Shown: positions 5,364 through 20,180 of the stretch, one piece after another | Numbering within the stretch: the first letter of the stretch is position 1 | Layout: each line of letters starts with the position of its first letter | NCBI GenBank assembly: GCA_048885865.1 | Contig: JBHLLF010000041.1 | Coordinates: forward strand, 1 to 23,230 | Direction: 5' to 3' | Length of the DNA stretch: 23,230 nt | DNA from: Candidatus Hermodarchaeota archaeon | GTDB taxonomy: Archaea; Asgardarchaeota; Thorarchaeia; Thorarchaeales; Thorarchaeaceae | Made by a program: the position numbers and the translations under genes | Notes under the pieces: generated by a model | The model's input: only the letters and a program-made list of their open reading frames with translations | Databases searched by the model: none | What the model was told of the DNA's origin: nothing

Positions 5364-6593
5364 CTATCGCCAGACTTTCTTCAGCAATGCCAGTGCATTT
5401 CCACCAATTACCTTGATGATCTCTTCATCCGAATATCCATTCTTTACCATCCATCGAGCGACATTATGTATCGCTTCACTGGGATTCTCAACACCCTTAA
5501 CATAGTCGGGTAGCTTGCTCTCATCTAGGTCAGGTGTTTGCCCTGGACGTGGATAGTGTCCCATGCCGGCTGTTGACAGGATTTCATCGTACACCTTGTA
5601 AAGGCCAACATGGTCACCATAGAGTGTATCCGGGCCACATCCGACATGATTGATTCCCATTAGCTCGATACAATACTCTAGGTGTTTTCCATAGGTGTCG
5701 ATTGAGGGAGTCTTGTTCTCATTGGTTGCAGTATATCCAGGCGCAGCCTCGATTCCAATCACACCGCCCTTCTCAGCTAATGTCTTCAGGACTTCATCAG
5801 GAACCATTCTCTTGATTGTGTGTACAGTTTTTGATCCAGCATGAGAGATAATTGGTGGCTTCTTCGCGGACTCGATTGTATCTAGAGCCGTCTGGTCGCT
5901 GACATGACTTACATCAACCAACATTCCAACCTTGTTCATACGAATGACTGCATCATAGCCGAAGTCAGTAAGTCCGCCATCACGCATCTCATCAAGTCCT
6001 GTCCCAAGTTGATTCGTTTCACTATAGACCAATCCCATTGATCTGATTCCAAGTCCGTAGAGAACGTCAATCCTGTCAACTTCGTTCTCAATGCATGTGG
6101 AGGACTCGAGCACTGCAACCCAAGCGAGTTTTCCAGTTTCAAACGCAGTGACAATATCTTCTACTCTCCGGCAGTGGATGACATAATCTTGGTGTGCAAT
6201 ATCGCAAAGTCGTTGTCCAAGATCATGAATGGTGTCGGTCCATTTCCATCCATGCTTTGAGGTTATATTTACCGAGCCATCCATCAAATTGTCAAAGACT
6301 GCATCGAGGTTTGTTTTGCTAAGAGCCTCATATGCCAGGCTGTCCCTGCCCTCGCGATTGACCAATAGAGAGTCCTTTGAGTCTGCAGGGTACAAAACCG
6401 GATGCTCATGAAGATCAATTACAATATTGTTCTCAAGAATCTCTTGCACGCGCTCCTCTTCAGTCTTCGAGAGCGGCACCTTGTAAGCCCAGTCCTTCTT
6501 CACAGGCTCCCGCCATTTGAACTCTCGATAGTCAACTCCTGGCGCGAGGTATTGATATGGCTTATAGCCGTCGTATTTCTTGTCTTTTCCCAT
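5364..6593 (-). CDS. Membrane/renal-type dipeptidase (peptidase M19, amidohydrolase fold)
   Basis: IDLHEH, LGIRSMGLVYSETN, GGLTDFG, MNKVGMLVDVSH, ISHAG, HVGCGPD and GYSDEEIIKVIGGN. Start placed at ATG 6593, with GGAGGAG just upstream; the ORF track starts at 6611. Confidence 0.92.
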   Translation of the reverse strand: MGKDKKYDGYKPYQYLAPGVDYREFKWREPVKKDWAYKVPLSKTEEERVQEILENNIVIDLHEHPVLYPADSKDSLLVNREGRDSLAYEALSKTNLDAVFDNLMDGSVNITSKHGWKWTDTIHDLGQRLCDIAHQDYVIHCRRVEDIVTAFETGKLAWVAVLESSTCIENEVDRIDVLYGLGIRSMGLVYSETNQLGTGLDEMRDGGLTDFGYDAVIRMNKVGMLVDVSHVSDQTALDTIESAKKPPIISHAGSKTVHTIKRMVPDEVLKTLAEKGGVIGIEAAPGYTATNENKTPSIDTYGKHLEYCIELMGINHVGCGPDTLYGDHVGLYKVYDEILSTAGMGHYPRPGQTPDLDESKLPDYVKGVENPSEAIHNVARWMVKNGYSDEEIIKVIGGNALALLKKVWR

Positions 6594-6611
6594 TTCATCT
6601 CCTCCAATCAT

Positions 6612-7355
6612 CTATTTCTTGAACACTGTATCCATGAGTTTTTCAAAGTCAGCTGCAGGATATGACAGGCGACTGTGTTTTAGATTCAAGTCTACGAACA
6701 TCTCAGCAGTCTTGATGGCAGCCTTCAAAGGATTCACAATTGGAATTGCTGGTTCCTGAATGACTTCGTCAGCCATTTTAAACGCCATCGACATGCATCC
6801 TAATACCAGACAACCTGCCCCCTTCGCCTTTGCTTTTCCAACTCCCGCTGACATCTCCCTAACAACACCATTTCCCCCGGAACCCCACATTTGTGCTATT
6901 GGCGTCTTTACAAACTCAATAGAGGCCAATCTACTCTCTAGTCCCATCTCTCTAATCCGAACTCTGACTCTGTCTTCTGACTCTACTCCAGCCTGCAGAG
7001 GCGTTAGCACACTAAATCTATCGGCGATCATGCAGGCAAGGTGATATGATGACTCAGCTGGACCAATTATTGGTATGTCCATCATCTCTCGTGCTGCAAC
7101 CAACCCAGGATCTCCGGCGCACCCTATAATGATTACATCATACTTGTCTTCTTTCTTAATCCGTAGCAGCCGTTCTAGCATCGGTCCGATTGACATGTAT
7201 TCCTCTATCGAAGACTCTATGGAGAGCGGACCCTCCCCAACCTCTTCAACGTGGAAGTTCGAGCCTGGTCGTATTATCGCAGTCCCTACCTCTTTACGGC
7301 GGCTCAATTCGTCCTCTGGCATTCCATCTCCTGGAATGAGGTACAGCAGTTCCAT
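6612..7355 (-). CDS. Asp/Glu/hydantoin (allantoin-type) racemase family protein
   Basis: Two catalytic cysteines in IIGCAGDPG and VLGCMSM, plus GPLSIES and IPIIGPAES. Lies in tandem with the dipeptidase. Confidence 0.9.
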   Translation of the reverse strand: MELLYLIPGDGMPEDELSRRKEVGTAIIRPGSNFHVEEVGEGPLSIESSIEEYMSIGPMLERLLRIKKEDKYDVIIIGCAGDPGLVAAREMMDIPIIGPAESSYHLACMIADRFSVLTPLQAGVESEDRVRVRIREMGLESRLASIEFVKTPIAQMWGSGGNGVVREMSAGVGKAKAKGAGCLVLGCMSMAFKMADEVIQEPAIPIVNPLKAAIKTAEMFVDLNLKHSRLSYPAADFEKLMDTVFKK

Positions 7356-13865: not shown

Positions 13866-15107
13866 CTACTCGTCTTCTTCTCCGGTGGATTCATCAGTAT
13901 CCACAAAATCCTCCAAAACCTCTGAATCTGGTTCGACCTCTGGTTCAGAAACATATTCTTCTCCCATAGGTTCAACTTCAGGTTCCTCTACTTCCTCATC
14001 TTCTGTGAGAACTGGAGCGTCTTCAGGTATAGGAGTTGGTTCCGGAGGGGCTCTGCCTACACGCCTGATGAAGAGTAGTGACATCAGGAGCGCAACGCCT
14101 GGAAAGAGGAAGAGCTTGATGATATCTGGAGCTTTCCCAAGTATTGGCAATATAGACGCCTCAAAGGCAGCTTCGACAACGAGATAGCCCGATGCCAAGA
14201 AGAATGTGAGAGTAGCTGCAAGCTCCTTCGAGATTTTCAGGCGTGTATCCAGATCAGATCTAGCTGATAGAGTTAGACCGACTGAACTCATAGCATAGAG
14301 TATGAAGAAGATGGACATGCCGATATCAACCAGCAATGATAGAATATCCAAGCCAACAATTTCAGGCTTCATTACATTGTAAAGAAAGTAGGCAACATAG
14401 AATGCAATGAAAAGACCCAGAAGAGCAAGGTTGTCGCCCATAGTCTTGTTACGATACCGAAGGATGAGAATTCCATTAAGGAAGTTGTAGCCCAATGCAA
14501 CTAGAAGACCAAGAACTGCCCCAATCAGCACTGGCACCTGAGCAGCATCCAGGAATAATGCAGGATTATAGATGAGCAAGACAAAGAAAGCACCAATCAT
14601 TACGACGTAACTGACTATATACAGAGATCCAAAGAACACTGTAACAGCTTTGGAACGATGTTCAATATCTACCATTTCTGCATATCCCAAGGCAGTCCTT
14701 GAGGACAAATACGCTTGAAGTGCAATCCATCCGAAGAAGGATATCCAGAAGAAGAATAGACTGTACAGAAATGGTGTGAAAATGAAGAGAACCGCATAAA
14801 CGACTGCGCTAACTCCGAGCCACGGAATGAATAGGATTAGGGAACGCCTGTAGGTTTCCTCATCTGCAAGGAACCGCTGTAGTCCAAGAATGGCTAAGAA
14901 TGAGGCGATGAGGAAGAATGTGGGGAATATCCCACCTATGACTGCAATCAGGCCAGTCGCGAAAAAGGGAAAGATTTGTCCCAAGCCTCTGACAATGAAC
15001 ACAAGAATCGCTGATATCAGAAAGATAAATGCAAACCATCGAAGCCTCTTGGACTCGAGGAAGAGCTTGACTCCTTTGATGAATCTAGTGATTATGGGGA
15101 TTTCCAT
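13866..15107 (-). CDS. Polytopic membrane protein (about 10 TM helices) with a Pro/Glu/Asp-rich C-terminal tail, function unknown
   Basis: About 345 aa of alternating hydrophobic helices followed by an acidic low-complexity tail of about 60 aa. GGAGGAATAGGAG immediately upstream. Confidence 0.85.
   Translation of the reverse strand: MEIPIITRFIKGVKLFLESKRLRWFAFIFLISAILVFIVRGLGQIFPFFATGLIAVIGGIFPTFFLIASFLAILGLQRFLADEETYRRSLILFIPWLGVSAVVYAVLFIFTPFLYSLFFFWISFFGWIALQAYLSSRTALGYAEMVDIEHRSKAVTVFFGSLYIVSYVVMIGAFFVLLIYNPALFLDAAQVPVLIGAVLGLLVALGYNFLNGILILRYRNKTMGDNLALLGLFIAFYVAYFLYNVMKPEIVGLDILSLLVDIGMSIFFILYAMSSVGLTLSARSDLDTRLKISKELAATLTFFLASGYLVVEAAFEASILPILGKAPDIIKLFLFPGVALLMSLLFIRRVGRAPPEPTPIPEDAPVLTEDEEVEEPEVEPMGEEYVSEPEVEPDSEVLEDFVDTDESTGEEDE
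13930..13985 (-). repeat. Short coding direct repeat (EPEVEP twice) in the acidic tail
   Basis: GGTTCGACCTCTGGTTC (13930-13946) and GGTTCAACTTCAGGTTC (13969-13985). Confidence 0.6.
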
Positions 15108-15738: not shown

Positions 15739-16317
15739 ATGCTGATTTCTCAAGCAAGCAAGGAGTGGTCCCACCTGGCAGAAGTCTACAAGGCCATCGT
15801 TCTTGGCCCACCAAACGTGGGGAAAAGCTCACTGATTAGACGTTATCAGGCAGGGGAATTCAGTGACGGGTATACTGCCACTGTCGGAATGGATATGAAA
15901 GCAGCTACGTTTGACTTCCCAGACGGTTCTGTTGTCCTCACAGTTGTTGACATCGGGGGACAGTCAACTTTCACCGGTCTAAGAAGCCGTTTCTTTGCTG
16001 GTTCTCATCATATGATTCTTGTCTTTGACAAGACTGACCGATCCACGTTTGACTCAATTCCAGAGTGGCATGGATCATTGACCAAGAATGTGAACATACC
16101 TGAGAAGCTCTTCCCAAGAGGGTCCCTCGTAGGCAATAAGGCTGATTTGAAGGACCAGGAGTCAGTCACCGCCGAGGAGGGCCAGAGGATGGCGGATATT
16201 TTGACTCTGGCCTATTTTGAGGCAAGTGCCAAAACGGGGCTGAATGTCGCAGAACTCTTTCTGCATGCTGCATCTGAATCCAGACAGCTAGTCAGGACAC
16301 GCGCCAGAGAGGCATAA
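15739..16317 (+). CDS. Rab-like (Ras superfamily) small GTPase
   Basis: G1 GPPNVGKSS, G2 YTATVG, G3 DIGGQ, G4 GNKAD and G5 EASAKTG. Degenerate RabF-like motifs VGMDM, RFFAGS and LVFDKT. No C-terminal Cys. The start may be further downstream (CTG 15775). Confidence 0.95.
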   Translation: MLISQASKEWSHLAEVYKAIVLGPPNVGKSSLIRRYQAGEFSDGYTATVGMDMKAATFDFPDGSVVLTVVDIGGQSTFTGLRSRFFAGSHHMILVFDKTDRSTFDSIPEWHGSLTKNVNIPEKLFPRGSLVGNKADLKDQESVTAEEGQRMADILTLAYFEASAKTGLNVAELFLHAASESRQLVRTRAREA

Positions 16318-16396: not shown

Positions 16397-17740
16397 TTGG
16401 ACACTATAGAGGAAGTCACAAAGAAAAAATGGATGGCACTATATGCCTTCTTGATAATGGACTTTCTGCAAATCCTGCTTGTGTCGGTTCTGTATCTCGA
16501 CGAGCGGAACAACCCTTTTGTTGTTGGCATTGATTTTTCAAGATTTGAACCAAGTGCATCCATGACTCTATTCATTGGAATCAGCCTGCTCCAACTCTTC
16601 CTTGTGTACTATGTTGCAATAGCCATGCAGCGAGATCCGGATTTAGTGCCACTCTATCCCGACTACAAGGAGGCGGATGAGTGTGCCTGTCGGTTCTCAC
16701 GTGATGAAATCGTCAATTGGACTCTTGAAAATGCGAAGATGAGTGGAGTTTCGGTAGGCAAAATCTATCTGATGAAATCACCTCTCCCCAATGCGTTTAC
16801 ATTCAGTCTTCCTTTGATGGGCTCCATCATTGTTGTGCATAGCAATATCCTGGATATACTTGAGCCTGAAGAAGTAAAAGCGATTATCGCGCATGAGGTC
16901 GGACATATCAAGAACCGTGATTCTATCATTCAGATTCTTGCCAGAATGCCAGCTTTCTTCATTGATACAATCTATATCTATGTCTACGTGCGAATTGCAC
17001 TGGCTATATCGGACTCTCTCTTTGCCACAGGCGATGTCATTTTAGCTGGGATTCGTGTTCTAGTGTTATTGGCATTCTTCGGTCTATCTAGATTCCTTGC
17101 AGCTGTATCGATGTTCCTGATGCAGATAGGATCTCGTGAGGCTGAGCTATTGTCTGACTATCATGCTGCGGAAGTCATAGGCGCCGAACATACAATTAAT
17201 GGTCTTATCCGTCTGGGTCAGCGGTCAGAGGCGATTTCTGTACTAATCGACGAGATTCGTTGGTTGGAATCACTCAATCCTGAAAGAACCGGGGTCGTAA
17301 CCCGGAAAGAGCTTGTACGAATGATTGAGCAATATCCGCTTGATGGTATTGATGAGGCTAATGCTCGGCATATGGCTCCATGGGTCTTTCTTGCGACTAG
17401 ACTGAAACATATGAGAGAAGTCTATGGAGTGGACCTCAGCGATCAGCAAATCAAGTCAGCTATCGAACCAGCCATGGCCTTCCTTGAAGAGAAGAGACCA
17501 GAGAGAGAAGAAAAACCCGAGGAAGAAGATAAGACGCCTAAGACAATTGACTGGAGATCAGTGGATTATGATGGTGACCGCCGCCTCTCAAATGATGAAT
17601 TGAAAGATCTACTTAAGCTACTTCGAACTAATCCAAAGAAGCTCATGTTTGATAGCGAGGTGGGGAAGAACCTGATGGCTTTGAGCCATCCTGACTTCAG
17701 ACGACGAGTGCTTACAATTGCTGATGCATTTGGGCTCTAG
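16397..17740 (+). CDS. M48 (HtpX/Ste24-like) membrane zinc metalloprotease with a large insertion containing an EF-hand
   Basis: Two N-terminal TM helices, PNAF, HEVGH (aa 166-170), SREAELLSD (third ligand E250) and C-terminal SHPDFRRR. EF-hand loop DYDGDRRLSNDE at aa 390-401. TTG start with GAGG upstream. Confidence 0.92.
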   Translation: MDTIEEVTKKKWMALYAFLIMDFLQILLVSVLYLDERNNPFVVGIDFSRFEPSASMTLFIGISLLQLFLVYYVAIAMQRDPDLVPLYPDYKEADECACRFSRDEIVNWTLENAKMSGVSVGKIYLMKSPLPNAFTFSLPLMGSIIVVHSNILDILEPEEVKAIIAHEVGHIKNRDSIIQILARMPAFFIDTIYIYVYVRIALAISDSLFATGDVILAGIRVLVLLAFFGLSRFLAAVSMFLMQIGSREAELLSDYHAAEVIGAEHTINGLIRLGQRSEAISVLIDEIRWLESLNPERTGVVTRKELVRMIEQYPLDGIDEANARHMAPWVFLATRLKHMREVYGVDLSDQQIKSAIEPAMAFLEEKRPEREEKPEEEDKTPKTIDWRSVDYDGDRRLSNDELKDLLKLLRTNPKKLMFDSEVGKNLMALSHPDFRRRVLTIADAFGL

Positions 17741-19239
17741 ATTCTTGCAGCTTCTTGTGCAGTATCTTTTTCAACCTCAGCTGGACTGAGACCTCTGAAT
17801 AATGAGATGATAATGCCAATTACCGCAAGTATTGCCAGTGTCCAAACAGTGAGCTGGAATGCTAGTGTATATGCATTAACATAGGCGGGGCCGGAGGCAG
17901 CTCCAGTGGTATTGATAGCCGCGAAATTCAATGAGAAGACTGTAGTCACAAGAGCTGTTGCTATCGAGAACCCAGTTGTTCGAGCGATGTTTGTAAGGGC
18001 ACTCACTACGCCCATGTATTCTCGGGGTGTCGAAGTCATAATGAAGTTGCTATTTGCCACACTGAAGAAGGATAGACCAAATCCAAGAATCGCAATTCCA
18101 AGCACTGGTAGAATTAGAGACACCCATGGAATTGCAGTAAGAGTGGGCATTGGCTGAATACCAGCCAAAGCCATTCCAAAGAAAACTAAACCAATGAACT
18201 GGGCAAAGAGACCTACAACAGTCTGAGTTCTGGCTCTGACTCTCTCTGAAACAAATCCTGAGAACGGTCCCACTATTGAGATAACTAAGGGGTGTGCTAC
18301 AAGTACAAAGCCTGTAGCAACTTGCGTGAAGCTTTTCGCATCTTGGAGATAGAAGGGTAAAAGGAATGACACAGGCACAAGAGACATGTAAGCAAGAAGA
18401 GCCGAGAATATACTCGTGGATATCCGTCTATCGGCCAGGACATTCATCGGGATTATGGGCGTGATGAAAGTCCTTTCTCTAATGATGAATGCTATGAATG
18501 AAACAAGGAAGATACCGAGGAGTATTATCAAGTCAGGGAATACTGGAATTGTTCCGATCATAGAAACACTGAGGATCAGTGTGAATAGAAAGGTCAGGAA
18601 AAGCAATGCCCCAGCTGTGTCGAATCTTACCTCGTGCACGCACTCGGTTTCAGGGATAGTCGCCCAGACAACGAGGAATCCTACAACGCCAATTGGCAGG
18701 TTGATGAGGAATATACTCTCCCATCCAAAGAATTCACTAAGAAAACCACCTATGACTGGACCTAGAGCTAGGGCAGCAGCCAAAACAATGGAACTCAATC
18801 CTATAGATCTCCCTCGATTCTTGGGAGTGGTGAAGTAGGTGACTAGAGCCAATCCATTAGCTGACATCATGCTTGCACCAAAAGCTTGGAATATCCTTGA
18901 TGCAAGCAGGAACTGAAGGGTTGGACTAAGCGCACAGAATAGTGATCCAATCACAAAGAAGATCATTCCCCATTGGAAGACTTTTGTCTTGCAGAATCTA
19001 TCTCCAAATTTGCCCATAAGGGGCATAAATGAGGTCATAATCAGGAGATATGAGAGGACCACCCACTGAATCTCAGCCATCTCGACGCTCAGGCTGGTTG
19101 CCATTGTTACTAATGAAACATTCACAATCGAGGAGTCAAGAGCGCTCAGGAACACACCAAAGCTTGTTGCTGCCACAATCTTGTACGGACCGGGCATTTC
19201 GATGCCGGTTACTATAGATTGCTGTCCTTGGTCTATCAT
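17737..19239 (-). CDS. MFS drug:H+ antiporter, DHA2 (EmrB/QacA-like) family, about 14 TM helices
   Basis: Motif D1 FLSALDSSIVNVSL, motif A GKFGDRFCKT, motif B ASRIFQAFG, motif C LGPVIGG and WESIFLINLPIG. Start is ATG 19239 or 19197; the ORF track uses 19287. The stop overlaps the M48 stop (CTAG, 17737-17740). Confidence 0.93.
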   Translation of the reverse strand: MIDQGQQSIVTGIEMPGPYKIVAATSFGVFLSALDSSIVNVSLVTMATSLSVEMAEIQWVVLSYLLIMTSFMPLMGKFGDRFCKTKVFQWGMIFFVIGSLFCALSPTLQFLLASRIFQAFGASMMSANGLALVTYFTTPKNRGRSIGLSSIVLAAALALGPVIGGFLSEFFGWESIFLINLPIGVVGFLVVWATIPETECVHEVRFDTAGALLFLTFLFTLILSVSMIGTIPVFPDLIILLGIFLVSFIAFIIRERTFITPIIPMNVLADRRISTSIFSALLAYMSLVPVSFLLPFYLQDAKSFTQVATGFVLVAHPLVISIVGPFSGFVSERVRARTQTVVGLFAQFIGLVFFGMALAGIQPMPTLTAIPWVSLILPVLGIAILGFGLSFFSVANSNFIMTSTPREYMGVVSALTNIARTTGFSIATALVTTVFSLNFAAINTTGAASGPAYVNAYTLAFQLTVWTLAILAVIGIIISLFRGLSPAEVEKDTAQEAARI

Positions 19240-19352
19240 TGCGTCATCGCTCGTCCTTGCGATTATCCGTTGAAGTCCAACCTGCAATTAAGGGTATGGC
19301 TACACCCTCGTAAGGCGGAAGCGTTTTCATCTACCTGACCCTCAGGTGGCCT

Positions 19353-20180
19353 ATGATCGATTTTGACCTTCTTCATAAGAAGGCACGCCATGATATCAGG
19401 ATGTGCCTCCAATCGTGGATTGAGGTGCTGAAGGATGAACTCGGAGAACGCATTGACTACGTTTATTCCAAGGGGTCATCAATGAAGAACTGGGCTTCCC
19501 CAATTGATTATGTGCCTGTACTCAGTGATGTTGATATCCACATCCTTCTCAAAGATGAAGAGGACCTTTTCCTTGGTTGCAAGGACAGATTCGAGGCTGC
19601 AATGCGCTTCTCCAAACGATATGAAGATCGATTCTTTGAACTGGAACCAGAGCCTCTCCATTTTCCACGAAGCCAGTTAGTTCATATCAACCCATTCCGG
19701 ACAGAGAAATGGTTTGTAATGCCGAAGGTCGATGCAGTACAACCTCTGATAGGGGATCCTAAGCCAGCGAAGATTCCCTCAGATGATACTATCCGCCAAA
19801 TCGACTTGGGGAACTTGATCGATCTGAAGGAGTATCTGCATGAAGTTGTCATGAGTGCTGTAGACAGAGCTGGGATTGACTTCTGGTCAATGATTAGACG
19901 AATGCTGTGGAGAGTGTCACCATCACCAGTGCGAGTGATAACACAGACCTATGAAGATCCAAATTCGGTTTGGAACTGGAATCGCACAAAGATATGTGCC
20001 CAACTAATAGACATGGGATTGAATGAAATGGAGAGACTCTATAGGGAGTTCTATATGGCTGGATGGCGTCTGTTCATCTCTGGCTATACTAGCCGCAACG
20101 ATTTCCGCGATTTGGCATACAATGGATACTATCTTTTGAAGGAATGCCATGAGTATGCCTTGAACCTGCAAAATATGTAA
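19353..20180 (+). CDS. Putative DNA polymerase beta-superfamily nucleotidyltransferase with a helical C-terminal domain
   Basis: YVYSKGSS (G41-S42) followed by SDVDIHILL (D59, D61) matches the hG[GS]...DxD signature. AGGTGG ribosome-binding motif upstream. Confidence 0.65.
   Translation: MIDFDLLHKKARHDIRMCLQSWIEVLKDELGERIDYVYSKGSSMKNWASPIDYVPVLSDVDIHILLKDEEDLFLGCKDRFEAAMRFSKRYEDRFFELEPEPLHFPRSQLVHINPFRTEKWFVMPKVDAVQPLIGDPKPAKIPSDDTIRQIDLGNLIDLKEYLHEVVMSAVDRAGIDFWSMIRRMLWRVSPSPVRVITQTYEDPNSVWNWNRTKICAQLIDMGLNEMERLYREFYMAGWRLFISGYTSRNDFRDLAYNGYYLLKECHEYALNLQNM

What the first reader, a model, noticed from the sequence alone, without database searches (positions are those of the whole stretch)
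16397..17740. HtpX/Ste24-type protease with an EF-hand inserted in its catalytic domain: candidate Ca2+-regulated membrane protease
Seen: all M48 catalytic motifs are intact (HEVGH, E250/D254, SHP at H431). The D254-to-H431 spacing is about 177 aa, against roughly 50 aa in typical HtpX, so there is an insertion of about 125 aa. Inside it is W-R-S-V-[DYDGDRRLSNDE]-LKDLLKLL (loop at nt 17564-17599). This has D1, D3, D5, hydrophobic 8, S9, E12, an aromatic at -4 and an amphipathic exit helix, which is the EF-hand consensus apart from R in place of G6. A charged flexible linker precedes it. Known: HtpX, Oma1 and Ste24 normally have no EF-hand. Inference: Ca2+ binding about 30 aa before the catalytic His could gate proteolysis, which would be a calpain-like logic built on a different protease fold.
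Basis: partly seen in the sequence, partly recalled or inferred. Interest (0 to 1): 0.82.

Follow-up and report, generated by a model that had tools for sequence, protein, structure and literature searches.

The report
Membrane M48 protease with built-in EF-hand
A Thorarchaeota (Asgard archaeon) membrane zinc protease of the HtpX/Ste24 (M48) kind carries a conserved 120-residue insertion containing a calcium-binding-type EF-hand loop, which makes it a testable candidate for calcium-controlled proteolysis in the closest prokaryotic relatives of eukaryotes.

Summary
The distance from the third zinc ligand to the HP motif is 181 aa, against a median of 60 aa in 42 ordinary M48 genes.

The insertion holds one EF-hand-type loop, DYDGDRRLSNDE (nt 17564-17599). 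It is not a chance motif:
- Ligand positions 1, 3, 5, 9 and 12, Leu8 and Trp-4 are conserved in relatives down to 19% identity, in several Asgard families and in bacteria. Non-ligand positions vary.
- A profile of the domain hits solved EF-hand proteins: calbindin (best single stretch 1.7e-5), secretagogin, calmodulin.
- AlphaFold2 (pLDDT 90.5) gives a short helix, the loop, and an exit helix that starts at loop position 10.

New findings:
- Most of the insertion is a helical module predicted to form a homodimer interface.
- In one Asgard genus, 21 of 21 genomes place the gene directly downstream of a P2-type Ca2+-ATPase.

Caveats:
- Gly6 is missing in nearly the whole Asgard clade.
- The hand is unpaired, with a 4-residue entering helix.
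- Pfam EF-hand scores are below threshold.
- Ca2+ binding and gating of proteolysis are untested.

First-stage readers of this scan had noted the same architecture in other genomes. I rate it a new variant of a known kind.

The parts
16397..17740 (+). Whole gene: 447-aa M48 family zinc metalloprotease with inserted dimerisation/EF-hand module
   Evidence: ORF. Pfam PF01435 E 2.4e-18. More than 120 full-length homologues, mostly Thorarchaeota, at 59-96% identity. AF2 model pLDDT 90.5, pTM 0.90.
16400..16630 (+). N-terminal transmembrane hairpin (helices at residues 2-31 and 52-78), with a Lys-rich N-terminus
   Evidence: Helices in the AF2 model and hydrophobic sequence. Topology is inferred from the positive-inside rule and HtpX homology.
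16892..16906 (+). HEVGH zinc-binding/catalytic motif (H166, E167, H170)
   Evidence: Invariant in 20 Thorarchaeota homologues. Aligned to the HExxH of Ste24p and the HtpX domain.
16949..17125 (+). Second transmembrane hairpin (helices at residues 185-211 and 214-243)
   Evidence: AF2 secondary structure. It aligns with the hydrophobic stretch of Ste24p.
17144..17158 (+). Third zinc-ligand motif E250-x3-D254 (REAELLSD)
   Evidence: E250 and D254 are invariant in A1. D254 is invariant and E250 at least 90% in 41 distant representatives.
17237..17509 (+). Helical part of the insertion (residues about 281-371), including the invariant WLESLNPER and YPLDGIDE motifs; predicted homodimer interface
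   Evidence: Absent from ordinary M48. Helices 263-292, 303-311, 320-343 and 349-371. The symmetric interface uses residues 290-363: ipSAE 0.49 against a best control of 0.02. No fold match outside the family.
17510..17542 (+). Acidic, variable linker (residues 372-382)
   Evidence: pLDDT about 61. Length and sequence vary among relatives.
17543..17629 (+). EF-hand: beta-bridge at I383, short entering helix W386-V389, 12-residue loop D390-E401 (nt 17564-17599), exit helix 399-411
   Evidence: Pfam EF-hand_6 E 8.7e-4 and EF-hand_1 E 1.8e-3, both below cut-off. Family profile against PDB: calbindin, secretagogin, calmodulin. Segment alone against PDB: calmodulin E 0.004, polcalcin E 0.007. Conservation of ligand positions. 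AF2 pLDDT 93-98.
17687..17707 (+). C-terminal H431-P432-x2-R435-x-R437 motif of M48 (active-site His)
   Evidence: H431, P432, R435 and R437 are invariant in A1. R437 is invariant and H431/P432 at least 90% in A2.
15739..16317 (+). Context only: Ras-family small GTPase 79 nt upstream on the same strand
   Evidence: Pfam Ras E 1.6e-37. Synteny is kept across Thorarchaeota loci, often with a TldD/PmbA pair in between.

Best explanation
The gene encodes a four-helix membrane M48 zinc metalloprotease, HtpX-like in layout but not an HtpX orthologue. Its cytoplasmic catalytic domain is interrupted, between the helix carrying the third zinc ligand (E250) and the C-terminal His-Pro motif (H431), by a family-specific module of about 120 residues. 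The first 90 residues of the module form helices that probably join two protomers into a homodimer. An acidic flexible linker follows. Then comes a single EF-hand whose loop would bind Ca2+ through D390, D392, D394, the R396 carbonyl, S398 (via water) and bidentate E401. The exit helix of the hand leads within about 20 less-ordered residues to H431-P432, which completes the active site. I therefore infer that Ca2+ occupancy sets the position or order of that segment, and so protease activity or substrate access. Shown here: M48 membership, the insertion, family-wide conservation of the EF-hand ligands, the helix-loop-helix model, and the genomic link to a Ca2+ pump in one lineage. Inferred: cytoplasmic orientation, actual Ca2+ binding, the dimer, and the coupling to catalysis.
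For: M48 identity:
- Pfam PF01435 scores 67.1 bits against a cut-off of 20.3.
- The family profile hits Ste24p (E 1.7e-7) and the HtpX domain (E 2.8e-6).
- The top Foldseek hits are ZMPSTE24, Ste24p and HtpX.

Insertion: 181 aa against a median of 60 aa between the third ligand and the HP motif.

EF-hand:
- In 41 representatives at 19-57% identity, the loop positions read: position 1 D 39/41, position 3 D/N 39/41, position 5 D/S/N 39/41, position 8 L 40/41, position 9 D/Q/E/S/T 41/41, position 12 E 40/41, and W at -4 in 38/41. Positions 2, 4, 10 and 11 vary freely.
- Of 176 family-like proteins, 136 fit the PROSITE-type EF-hand pattern (recalled from memory).
- A profile of residues 262-447 hits calbindin D28k (best single stretch 1.7e-5; the whole-sequence E of 5e-16 is summed over several calbindin EF-hands), secretagogin (1.5e-10) and calmodulin (about 1e-4). 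All hits lie on the loop plus exit helix.
- The 39-aa segment alone finds calmodulin (0.004) and polcalcin (0.007).
- The AF2 model has pLDDT 93-98 here, with the exit helix starting at loop position 10, as in canonical hands.

Same compartment as the active site: no transmembrane segment lies between E250 and the loop.

Calcium context:
- In Asgard family f11, 21 of 21 genomes carrying the gene have it directly downstream, on the same strand, of a 921-aa P2-type Ca2+-ATPase. The gene-pair proteins are down to 61-66% identical across those genomes.
- The ATPase is best matched by Listeria LMCA1 (E 8e-176), SPCA and SERCA. It passes NCBIfam's PMCA-type cut-off, 518 against 507 bits.
- The window's own genome has three P2-ATPase paralogues.
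- Thorarchaeota gelsolins are Ca2+-regulated in vitro (PMC7444086, PMC9433394).

Dimer: ipSAE 0.49 against a best control of 0.02. The three runs share at least 68% of contacts and partner pLDDT is at least 80. In the tool's calibration the mark was reached by 20 of 30 proteins solved as pairs of one chain and by 1 of 23 solved as single chains. Those counts hold only roughly here, because my own alignment and riding ligands were used.
Against: - Loop position 6 is Arg here, not Gly. Gly6 is present in only 1 of 22 representatives of the Asgard-containing clade, against 17 of 19 in the bacterial-context clade. Some archaeal members have Leu or Val there, which is unusual for working EF-hands.
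- R395 and R396 could neutralise the acidic loop.
- Pfam EF-hand models score below their gathering cut-offs (19.3 against 25 bits). Only 5 of 41 representatives reach E <= 0.01.
- The entering helix has 4 residues, and no second hand or beta-bridge at position 8 is seen. Neither the monomer model nor the dimer model pairs the hand.
- Three representatives without any catalytic residues keep the loop, and three active-looking ones lost it. The coupling to catalysis is therefore not obligatory.
- The Ca2+-ATPase pairing is confined to one genus-level lineage. It was not seen in the Thorarchaeota, f13, f10, f12, f7 or bacterial loci examined.
- No model coordinates were available, so the geometry of the site and its distance to the zinc were not measured.
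- There are no expression data.
Confidence: 0.55

Rival explanations
1. The loop is a structural element, not a switch. Either it is a permanently occupied metal site that stabilises the insertion, or, in the Asgard clade, it is a former EF-hand whose acidic residues are now held by R395/R396 or other side chains and no longer bind Ca2+. The protease would then be a constitutive quality-control enzyme like HtpX.
For: Gly6 is lost in 21 of 22 representatives of the Asgard-containing clade, with Arg-Arg fixed at positions 6-7 in Thorarchaeota (110 of 154 loops). The hand is unpaired, with a 4-residue entering helix. Pfam EF-hand scores are below threshold. No other EF-hand pair protein was found in the window's genome, which is 87% complete.
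Against: All oxygen-donating positions stay under strict constraint in both clades, while neighbouring non-ligand positions drift. That pattern is what metal coordination predicts. The site shares the compartment of the active site, inferred to be the cytoplasm, where free Ca2+ is normally scarce, so permanent occupancy is unlikely (established knowledge of Ca2+ homeostasis). The Ca2+-ATPase gene pairing holds in 21 of 21 genomes of one lineage.
Confidence: 0.25
2. The EF-hand binds Ca2+, but its output is not catalysis. It controls dimerisation, membrane localisation or binding of a partner, for example the neighbouring Ca2+-ATPase in f11 or the Ras-family GTPase or TldD/PmbA proteases in Thorarchaeota. 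The family would then act as a Ca2+-sensing scaffold that happens to be built on a protease.
For: Three representatives lost HExxH, the third-ligand Glu and the HP motif but keep DVDGNL.LD..E. Most of the insertion is a predicted protein-protein interface. Neighbours recur: the Ca2+-ATPase in f11, and Ras-family GTPases within 5 kb in f1, f13, L100 and L101.
Against: In 38 of 41 representatives the catalytic motifs and the loop are kept together. The predicted dimer interface does not include the loop. Asgard genomes are rich in Ras-family GTPases, so proximity can arise by chance, and f1 and f13 may share ancestral synteny. No partner interaction was tested.
Confidence: 0.15
3. The EF-hand match is a chance acidic motif in a lineage-specific linker and has no function.
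For: Short D/E-rich motifs are common, and Pfam scores are below threshold.
Against: The motif is conserved in register across archaea and bacteria at 19% overall identity. The family profile hits solved EF-hands significantly. The model is confidently ordered here.
Confidence: 0.02

Closest known systems
HtpX (MEROPS M48B), bacterial/archaeal membrane quality-control protease
   Same: HExxH, a downstream Glu ligand in an E-x2-A/S-D motif, and a C-terminal [ST]HP motif. Two N-terminal transmembrane helices, then the catalytic domain, then a second hydrophobic hairpin. The best NCBIfam hits are HtpX models.
   Different: NCBIfam HtpX equivalog scores are far below cut-off (66 against 275 bits). 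There are about 120 extra residues between the third ligand and the HP motif. That stretch holds a predicted dimer module and an EF-hand, neither of which is described for HtpX.
Ste24 / ZMPSTE24 (M48A) CAAX prenyl protease
   Same: Best solved-structure matches by sequence profile (4il3, E 1.7e-7) and by Foldseek (4aw6, probability 1.00, E 3e-3, TM about 0.33).
   Different: Ste24 has seven transmembrane helices enclosing a chamber and no EF-hand. This protein has four predicted helices and a large cytoplasmic insertion.
BlaR1/MecR1 (M56) signal-sensing membrane zinc proteases
   Same: A weak Pfam M56 match around HExxH (E 5e-4) and weak Foldseek hits to BlaR1. The concept is shared: a membrane gluzincin whose proteolysis is triggered by a ligand-binding domain. 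BlaR1 is a dimer.
   Different: The BlaR1 sensor is an extracellular penicillin-binding domain. Here the putative sensor is an EF-hand inside the catalytic domain. The M56 score is below cut-off.
Calpain (C2 cysteine protease with penta-EF-hand domains)
   Same: Works-like analogy only: a protease with covalently attached EF-hand(s) that would respond to cytosolic Ca2+.
   Different: The catalytic class and fold are different. Calpain uses paired penta-EF-hand domains plus Ca2+ sites in the protease core, and it is soluble. There is no homology.
Calbindin D28k / secretagogin / calmodulin EF-hands
   Same: The family profile aligns W-x2-[FY]-D-x-D-x-[SD]-G-x-[LI]-x3-E-L-x2-[LF]-[LIV] with these Ca2+-binding hands. 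The Trp at -4 is shared with calbindin-type hands.
   Different: Those hands occur in pairs with full-length entering helices and Gly6. This one is single, has a 4-residue entering helix and has Arg6.

Membership tests
Peptidase family M48 | Pfam PF01435 match above the gathering cut-off | tested here: met
   67.1 bits against a cut-off of 20.3, E 2.4e-18, residues 113-270. 39 of 41 distant representatives also match.
Peptidase family M48 | HExxH zinc motif plus a downstream Glu third ligand | tested here: met
   H166-E167-x2-H170 and E250 are invariant in A1 and aligned to Ste24p.
Peptidase family M48 | C-terminal [ST]-H-P motif | tested here: met
   S430-H431-P432 is invariant in A1 and at least 90% conserved in A2. 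It lies 181 aa after E250 instead of about 60 aa.
Peptidase family M48 | Fold similarity to solved M48 enzymes | tested here: inconclusive
   The top Foldseek hits are ZMPSTE24, Ste24p and the HtpX domain, but at E 3e-3 and TM about 0.33 over about 230 columns.
HtpX orthologue (NCBIfam equivalogs) | Score above the equivalog cut-off | tested here: not met
   Best hit is NF002322 at 66.1 bits against a cut-off of 275. All eight HtpX models are far below cut-off, and their best-scoring stretches lie within residues 58-277.
EF-hand | 12-residue loop with oxygen ligands at positions 1, 3, 5, 9 and 12, and a hydrophobic residue at 8 | tested here: met
   D390, D392, D394, L397, S398 and E401, conserved family-wide.
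EF-hand | Gly at loop position 6 | tested here: not met
   R395 here. Gly is present in 17 of 19 bacterial-context representatives but only 1 of 22 in the Asgard-containing clade. The PROSITE pattern as I recall it tolerates Arg at this position.
EF-hand | Helix-loop-helix with the exit helix starting at loop position 10 | tested here: met
   AF2 gives H386-389, loop 390-398 and H399-411, with pLDDT 93-98. The entering helix has only 4 residues.
EF-hand | Pfam EF-hand model above the gathering cut-off | tested here: not met
   EF-hand_6 scores 19.3 against 25 bits, EF-hand_1 18.1 against 25.4, and EF-hand_7 16.6 against 30.
EF-hand | Significant sequence similarity to solved Ca2+-binding EF-hands | tested here: met
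   Family profile: calbindin (best single stretch 1.7e-5), secretagogin 1.5e-10, calmodulin 6e-5 to 8e-4. Single segment: calmodulin 0.004.
EF-hand | Pairing with a second EF-hand | tested here: inconclusive
   No second loop in the sequence and no beta-bridge at L397 in the model. The predicted dimer interface (residues 290-363) does not list the loop.
EF-hand | Ca2+ binding | not testable with these tools
   Needs ITC, Tb3+ luminescence or 45Ca overlay, or a structure.

The most novel reading that the evidence does not exclude
This is an undescribed, ancient prokaryotic family of homodimeric membrane proteases that sense cytosolic Ca2+ through a built-in EF-hand. In Asgard archaea it would form part of a real Ca2+ signalling or homeostasis circuit. 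In one lineage it is genetically coupled to a SERCA/PMCA-like pump, for example as a feedback regulator that cleaves or controls the pump or its regulators. Together with the Ca2+-regulated Asgard gelsolins, it would show that Ca2+ second-messenger logic acting on proteolysis predates eukaryotes.
Probability: 0.25. Interest if true: 0.8.

Novelty: new variant of a known kind. Interest (0 to 1): 0.62.

Why it matters
Ca2+-regulated proteolysis is regarded as a eukaryotic speciality, calpains being the main example. Evidence for cytosolic Ca2+ signalling in archaea is thin. For Asgard archaea it rests mainly on in-vitro Ca2+ control of gelsolins (PMC7444086, PMC9433394).

A conserved EF-hand wired into the catalytic domain of a membrane protease offers a concrete test case. 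It is present in most Thorarchaeota and several other Asgard families, and it is genetically paired with a Ca2+ pump in one of them. The experiment is simple: binding and activity assays on one 447-aa protein.

It would also add a new regulatory principle to the M48/HtpX family, whose activation mechanisms are poorly understood.

The family also occurs in bacteria. It is therefore not a eukaryotic signature protein, and its value is mechanistic rather than phylogenetic.

Tried and rejected
- Fold of the insertion domain (residues 262-447, model pLDDT 91.6): no informative match. Foldseek against PDB gave a best E of 0.56. VIA-align wide gave a best Z of 5.2 on unrelated helical proteins. The ESM Atlas search by shape found only the protein's own family cluster, TM 0.69. 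Because the hand is small, these searches barely test it.
- The feature search in the protein atlas gave only sub-0.9 leads. These were fragment clusters in which some members carry M48 and EF-hand_5.
- The search for related loci with the divergent alignment A2 failed because no conserved stretch was available. With A1, full-length hits were all Thorarchaeota or unnamed archaea.
- Names for the distant clade could not be obtained. Its bacterial nature was inferred from neighbours: flagellar export genes; PSCyt1/Fae/Mpt_N; ECF sigma factor and WD40 proteins.
- A search of the window's genome for EF-hand pair proteins (PF13499) found none. The genome is 87% complete, so this does not show absence.
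- Literature: no paper links HtpX or M48 with an EF-hand. Schaffer et al. 2020 (PMC7016017) discuss Asgard calcineurin-like phosphatases, and no passage returned by the term search mentions this protease.
- Pairing of the two EF-hands across the predicted homodimer was considered. The confident interface (residues 290-363) does not contain the loop.
- A degenerate partner hand at residues 303-343 (YPLDGIDE) was considered. It has no ligand pattern and no beta-bridge to the loop.
- The Ras-GTPase/M48 'module' idea: synteny is conserved within Thorarchaeota, but in most species a TldD/PmbA pair of about 3 kb sits between the two genes. I treat this as context, not as part of the mechanism.
Full report
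**What is there.** The window has about 46% G+C. window:16397-17740 (+) is a 447-codon ORF starting with TTG. Homologues begin at the same place (MDTIEEV / MIEEV), so the start is sound. Pfam assigns Peptidase_M48 (E 2.4e-18, 67.1 bits, cut-off 20.3) to residues 113-270. A profile of 20 orthologues hits Ste24p (4il3, E 1.7e-7) and the HtpX catalytic domain (3cqb, E 2.8e-6). NCBIfam's HtpX equivalogs are the best named models but score far below cut-off (66 against 275 bits). The protein is therefore an M48 member but not an HtpX orthologue.

**The insertion.** The Pfam match stops at profile position 161 of 186 at residue 270. In 42 ordinary M48 ORFs from bacterial and archaeal loci fetched, the distance from the third-ligand Glu to the His of [ST]HP has a median of 60 aa, with 40 of 42 between 51 and 64. 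Here it is 181 aa.

**The EF-hand.**
- The loop DYDGDRRLSNDE occupies residues 390-401 (nt 17564-17599). Trp is at -4, Val at -1 and Leu at +13.
- Pfam EF-hand_6, EF-hand_1 and EF-hand_7 match at E 8.7e-4 to 1e-2, below their cut-offs.
- In 20 Thorarchaeota orthologues at 59-85% identity, D385, W386, R387, D390, R396, L397, S398, E401, L405 and L406 are invariant. D392 is at least 90% conserved and position 394 is D or N.
- An exhaustive HMMER search of 1.84 billion cluster representatives found 94 proteins at E <= 1e-10. I aligned 40 of the representatives whose match spans most of the query, at 19-57% identity.
- Without any motif filter, the loop columns in those 41 sequences read: position 1 D 39/41, position 3 D/N 39/41, position 5 D/S/N 39/41, position 8 L 40/41, position 9 D/Q/E/S/T 41/41, position 12 E 40/41, and W at -4 in 38/41. 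Positions 2, 4, 10 and 11 are free. This is the pattern expected for EF-hand metal coordination (established knowledge of the EF-hand loop).
- A profile of residues 262-447 from 45 family members, searched against all PDB sequences, retrieves EF-hand proteins. These are calbindin D28k (whole-sequence E 5e-16 summed over several hands; best single stretch 1.7e-5), secretagogin (1.5e-10) and calmodulin (6e-5 to 8e-4). They always align on the W-x3-D...E loop plus exit helix, with negligible bias.
- The window's own 39-aa segment alone finds calmodulin (0.004), polcalcin (0.007), calcineurin B and calbindin D9k.
- Chance is excluded.

**Structure.** AlphaFold2 on the 41-sequence alignment gives pLDDT 90.5 and pTM 0.90. 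The model has these elements:
- Two N-terminal long helices (2-31 and 52-78).
- The catalytic alpha/beta unit.
- A second helical hairpin (185-211 and 214-261) that runs into the helix bearing E250.
- Insertion helices at 263-292, 303-311, 320-343 and 349-371.
- A low-confidence acidic linker (pLDDT about 61).
- A beta-bridge at I383, a 4-residue helix at 386-389, the loop at 390-398, and an exit helix at 399-411 that begins at loop position 10 as in canonical hands.
- A less confident stretch (pLDDT about 70 at residues 421-430), then H431-P432 and a final helix.

The domain folded alone gives the same picture (pLDDT 91.6). There is no second hand and no beta-bridge at L397. No transmembrane segment separates E250 from the loop, so the hand shares the compartment of the active site. 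I infer that compartment to be the cytoplasm, from the Lys-rich N-terminus and from the known orientation of HtpX and Ste24. The insertion as a whole has no detectable fold relative.

**Dimer.** A homodimer prediction with Ca and Zn riding along passed the tool's mark. The score was 0.49 against a best control of 0.02. The three runs share at least 68% of contacts and partner pLDDT is at least 80. In the tool's calibration, 20 of 30 proteins solved as pairs of one chain and 1 of 23 solved as single chains reached the mark. Those counts hold only roughly here, because my own alignment and ligands were used. The symmetric interface is made only of insertion residues 290-363, including the invariant LESLNPER and the V342-L347 stretch. 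It does not include the EF loop. I know of no solved complex resembling this interface, so a pass from memory is unlikely, but this is a model and not a measurement. It changes the anatomy: most of the 'insertion' is probably a dimerisation platform, and the EF-hand is a separate element between that platform and the catalytic HP motif.

**Distribution.**
- Near-full-length homologues are named Thorarchaeota almost throughout.
- Among 400 genomes of the phylum, full-length matches occur in family f1 (64 of 85; this is the window's family) and in f7, f10, f11 (21 of 22), f12 and f13 (12 of 12). In f22, only 3 of 135 genomes match at all and the matches listed stop near residue 270; f8 (31 genomes) has no match.
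- A quick ML tree splits the representatives into two clades, each with SH-aLRT 100 (midpoint root, for drawing only).
- One clade holds every member with Asgard context.
- The other clade's sampled members sit among bacterial genes. These include flagellar export genes, PSCyt1/Fae/Mpt_N typical of Planctomycetota, and an ECF sigma factor.
- The bacterial-context clade has textbook loops such as DADASGTLDAAE and DWNHDGFLQLDE, with Gly6 in 17 of 19. The Asgard-containing clade has Gly6 in 1 of 22, with R, L, E, Q, H or V instead. This is the main argument against assuming that the archaeal loop still binds Ca2+ normally.
- Three representatives lack the loop. Three others lack all catalytic residues but keep it.

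**Gene context.**
- In Thorarchaeota the order membrane protein, thioredoxin-like, Ras-family GTPase, (0 or about 3 kb), M48-EF, MFS transporter is conserved. The 3-kb insert is a TldD/PmbA pair. The same GTPase and TldD/PmbA genes lie near the gene in family f13, in another order.
- The most informative context is in f11. In 21 of 21 genomes the gene lies directly downstream, on the same strand, of a 921-aa P-type ATPase. The two proteins are only 61-83% identical across those genomes.
- That ATPase has the P2 architecture. It passes NCBIfam's PMCA-type Ca2+-ATPase cut-off and nearly reaches the PMR1 and SERCA ones. It is most similar to the Listeria Ca2+-ATPase LMCA1 (E 8e-176), SPCA1 and SERCA.
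- All 21 genomes are from one genus, so this counts as one evolutionary event. It is still an independent pointer to calcium.
- The window's own genome encodes three P2-ATPase paralogues elsewhere.

**Mechanism and odds.** I hold it as near certain (about 0.9) that this is an active M48 protease with a conserved EF-hand-derived loop. I put the chance that this Thorarchaeota protein binds Ca2+ at that loop at about 0.65. I put the chance that Ca2+ occupancy regulates proteolysis at about 0.4. The proposed route is through the roughly 20 residues between the exit helix and H431. The combined best explanation gets 0.55. The rivals are a structural or degenerate site (0.25), a Ca2+ sensor whose output is not catalysis (0.15), and chance (0.02).

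**Comparison and novelty.** The closest relatives are HtpX and Ste24 for the catalytic core. BlaR1/MecR1 is the closest known example of a ligand-triggered membrane gluzincin. Calpain is only a functional analogy. I found no paper that describes an M48 or HtpX enzyme with an EF-hand. Databases call these proteins simply 'M48 family metalloprotease'. First-stage readers of this scan had already flagged the same architecture on other genomes. Those notes were unchecked. Here the conservation, the profile significance, the model, the dimer prediction, the bacterial members and the Ca2+-ATPase linkage were tested. I rate it a new variant of a known kind.

Noticed in passing
L085:4118-8491 (and L086-L090, L102-L116): In one Asgard genus (family f11), a P2-type Ca2+-ATPase (921 aa; best PDB match Listeria LMCA1) and the M48-EF-hand gene form a same-strand pair with a gap of about 100-200 nt in 21 of 21 genomes. 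A VWA-domain gene cluster lies on the other side.
   Followed up: yes
window 15739-16317; L008:3083-5916; L091:9441-13238: A Ras-family small GTPase and a TldD/PmbA metalloprotease pair recur near the M48-EF gene in two Asgard families (f1 and f13), in different orders. In the window's genus the TldD/PmbA pair is absent and the GTPase is 79 nt upstream. L101 (labelled Odinarchaeota) also has a Ras GTPase adjacent and a HEAT-repeat gene upstream, as in f13.
   Followed up: partly
P0139, P0149, P0171 (representatives): These are pseudo-protease relatives. HExxH, the third-ligand Glu and the HP motif are all replaced, but the EF-hand-type loop DVDGNL.LD..E and the insertion are retained.
   Followed up: partly
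window 17333-17356 (residues 313-320): The Y-P-L-D-G-I-D-E motif in the insertion is invariant in Thorarchaeota, and P314 is at least 90% conserved family-wide. It lies outside the predicted dimer interface and has no assigned role.
   Followed up: no
window 13866-15107 (-) and 19353-20180 (+): A 413-aa polytopic membrane protein with an acidic C-terminal tail and a 275-aa protein have no Pfam match. Both are syntenic with the M48 gene in many Thorarchaeota loci.
   Followed up: no
window 5364-7355 (-): An Asp/Glu/hydantoin racemase gene is followed directly by an M19 membrane dipeptidase gene (Pfam E 1.6e-27 and 5.9e-63). Another first-stage note flagged this pair, and I did not examine it further.
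   Followed up: no
window 17737-17740: The M48 gene and the convergent MFS transporter gene (17737-19287, minus strand) overlap by 4 nt at their 3' ends.
   Followed up: no
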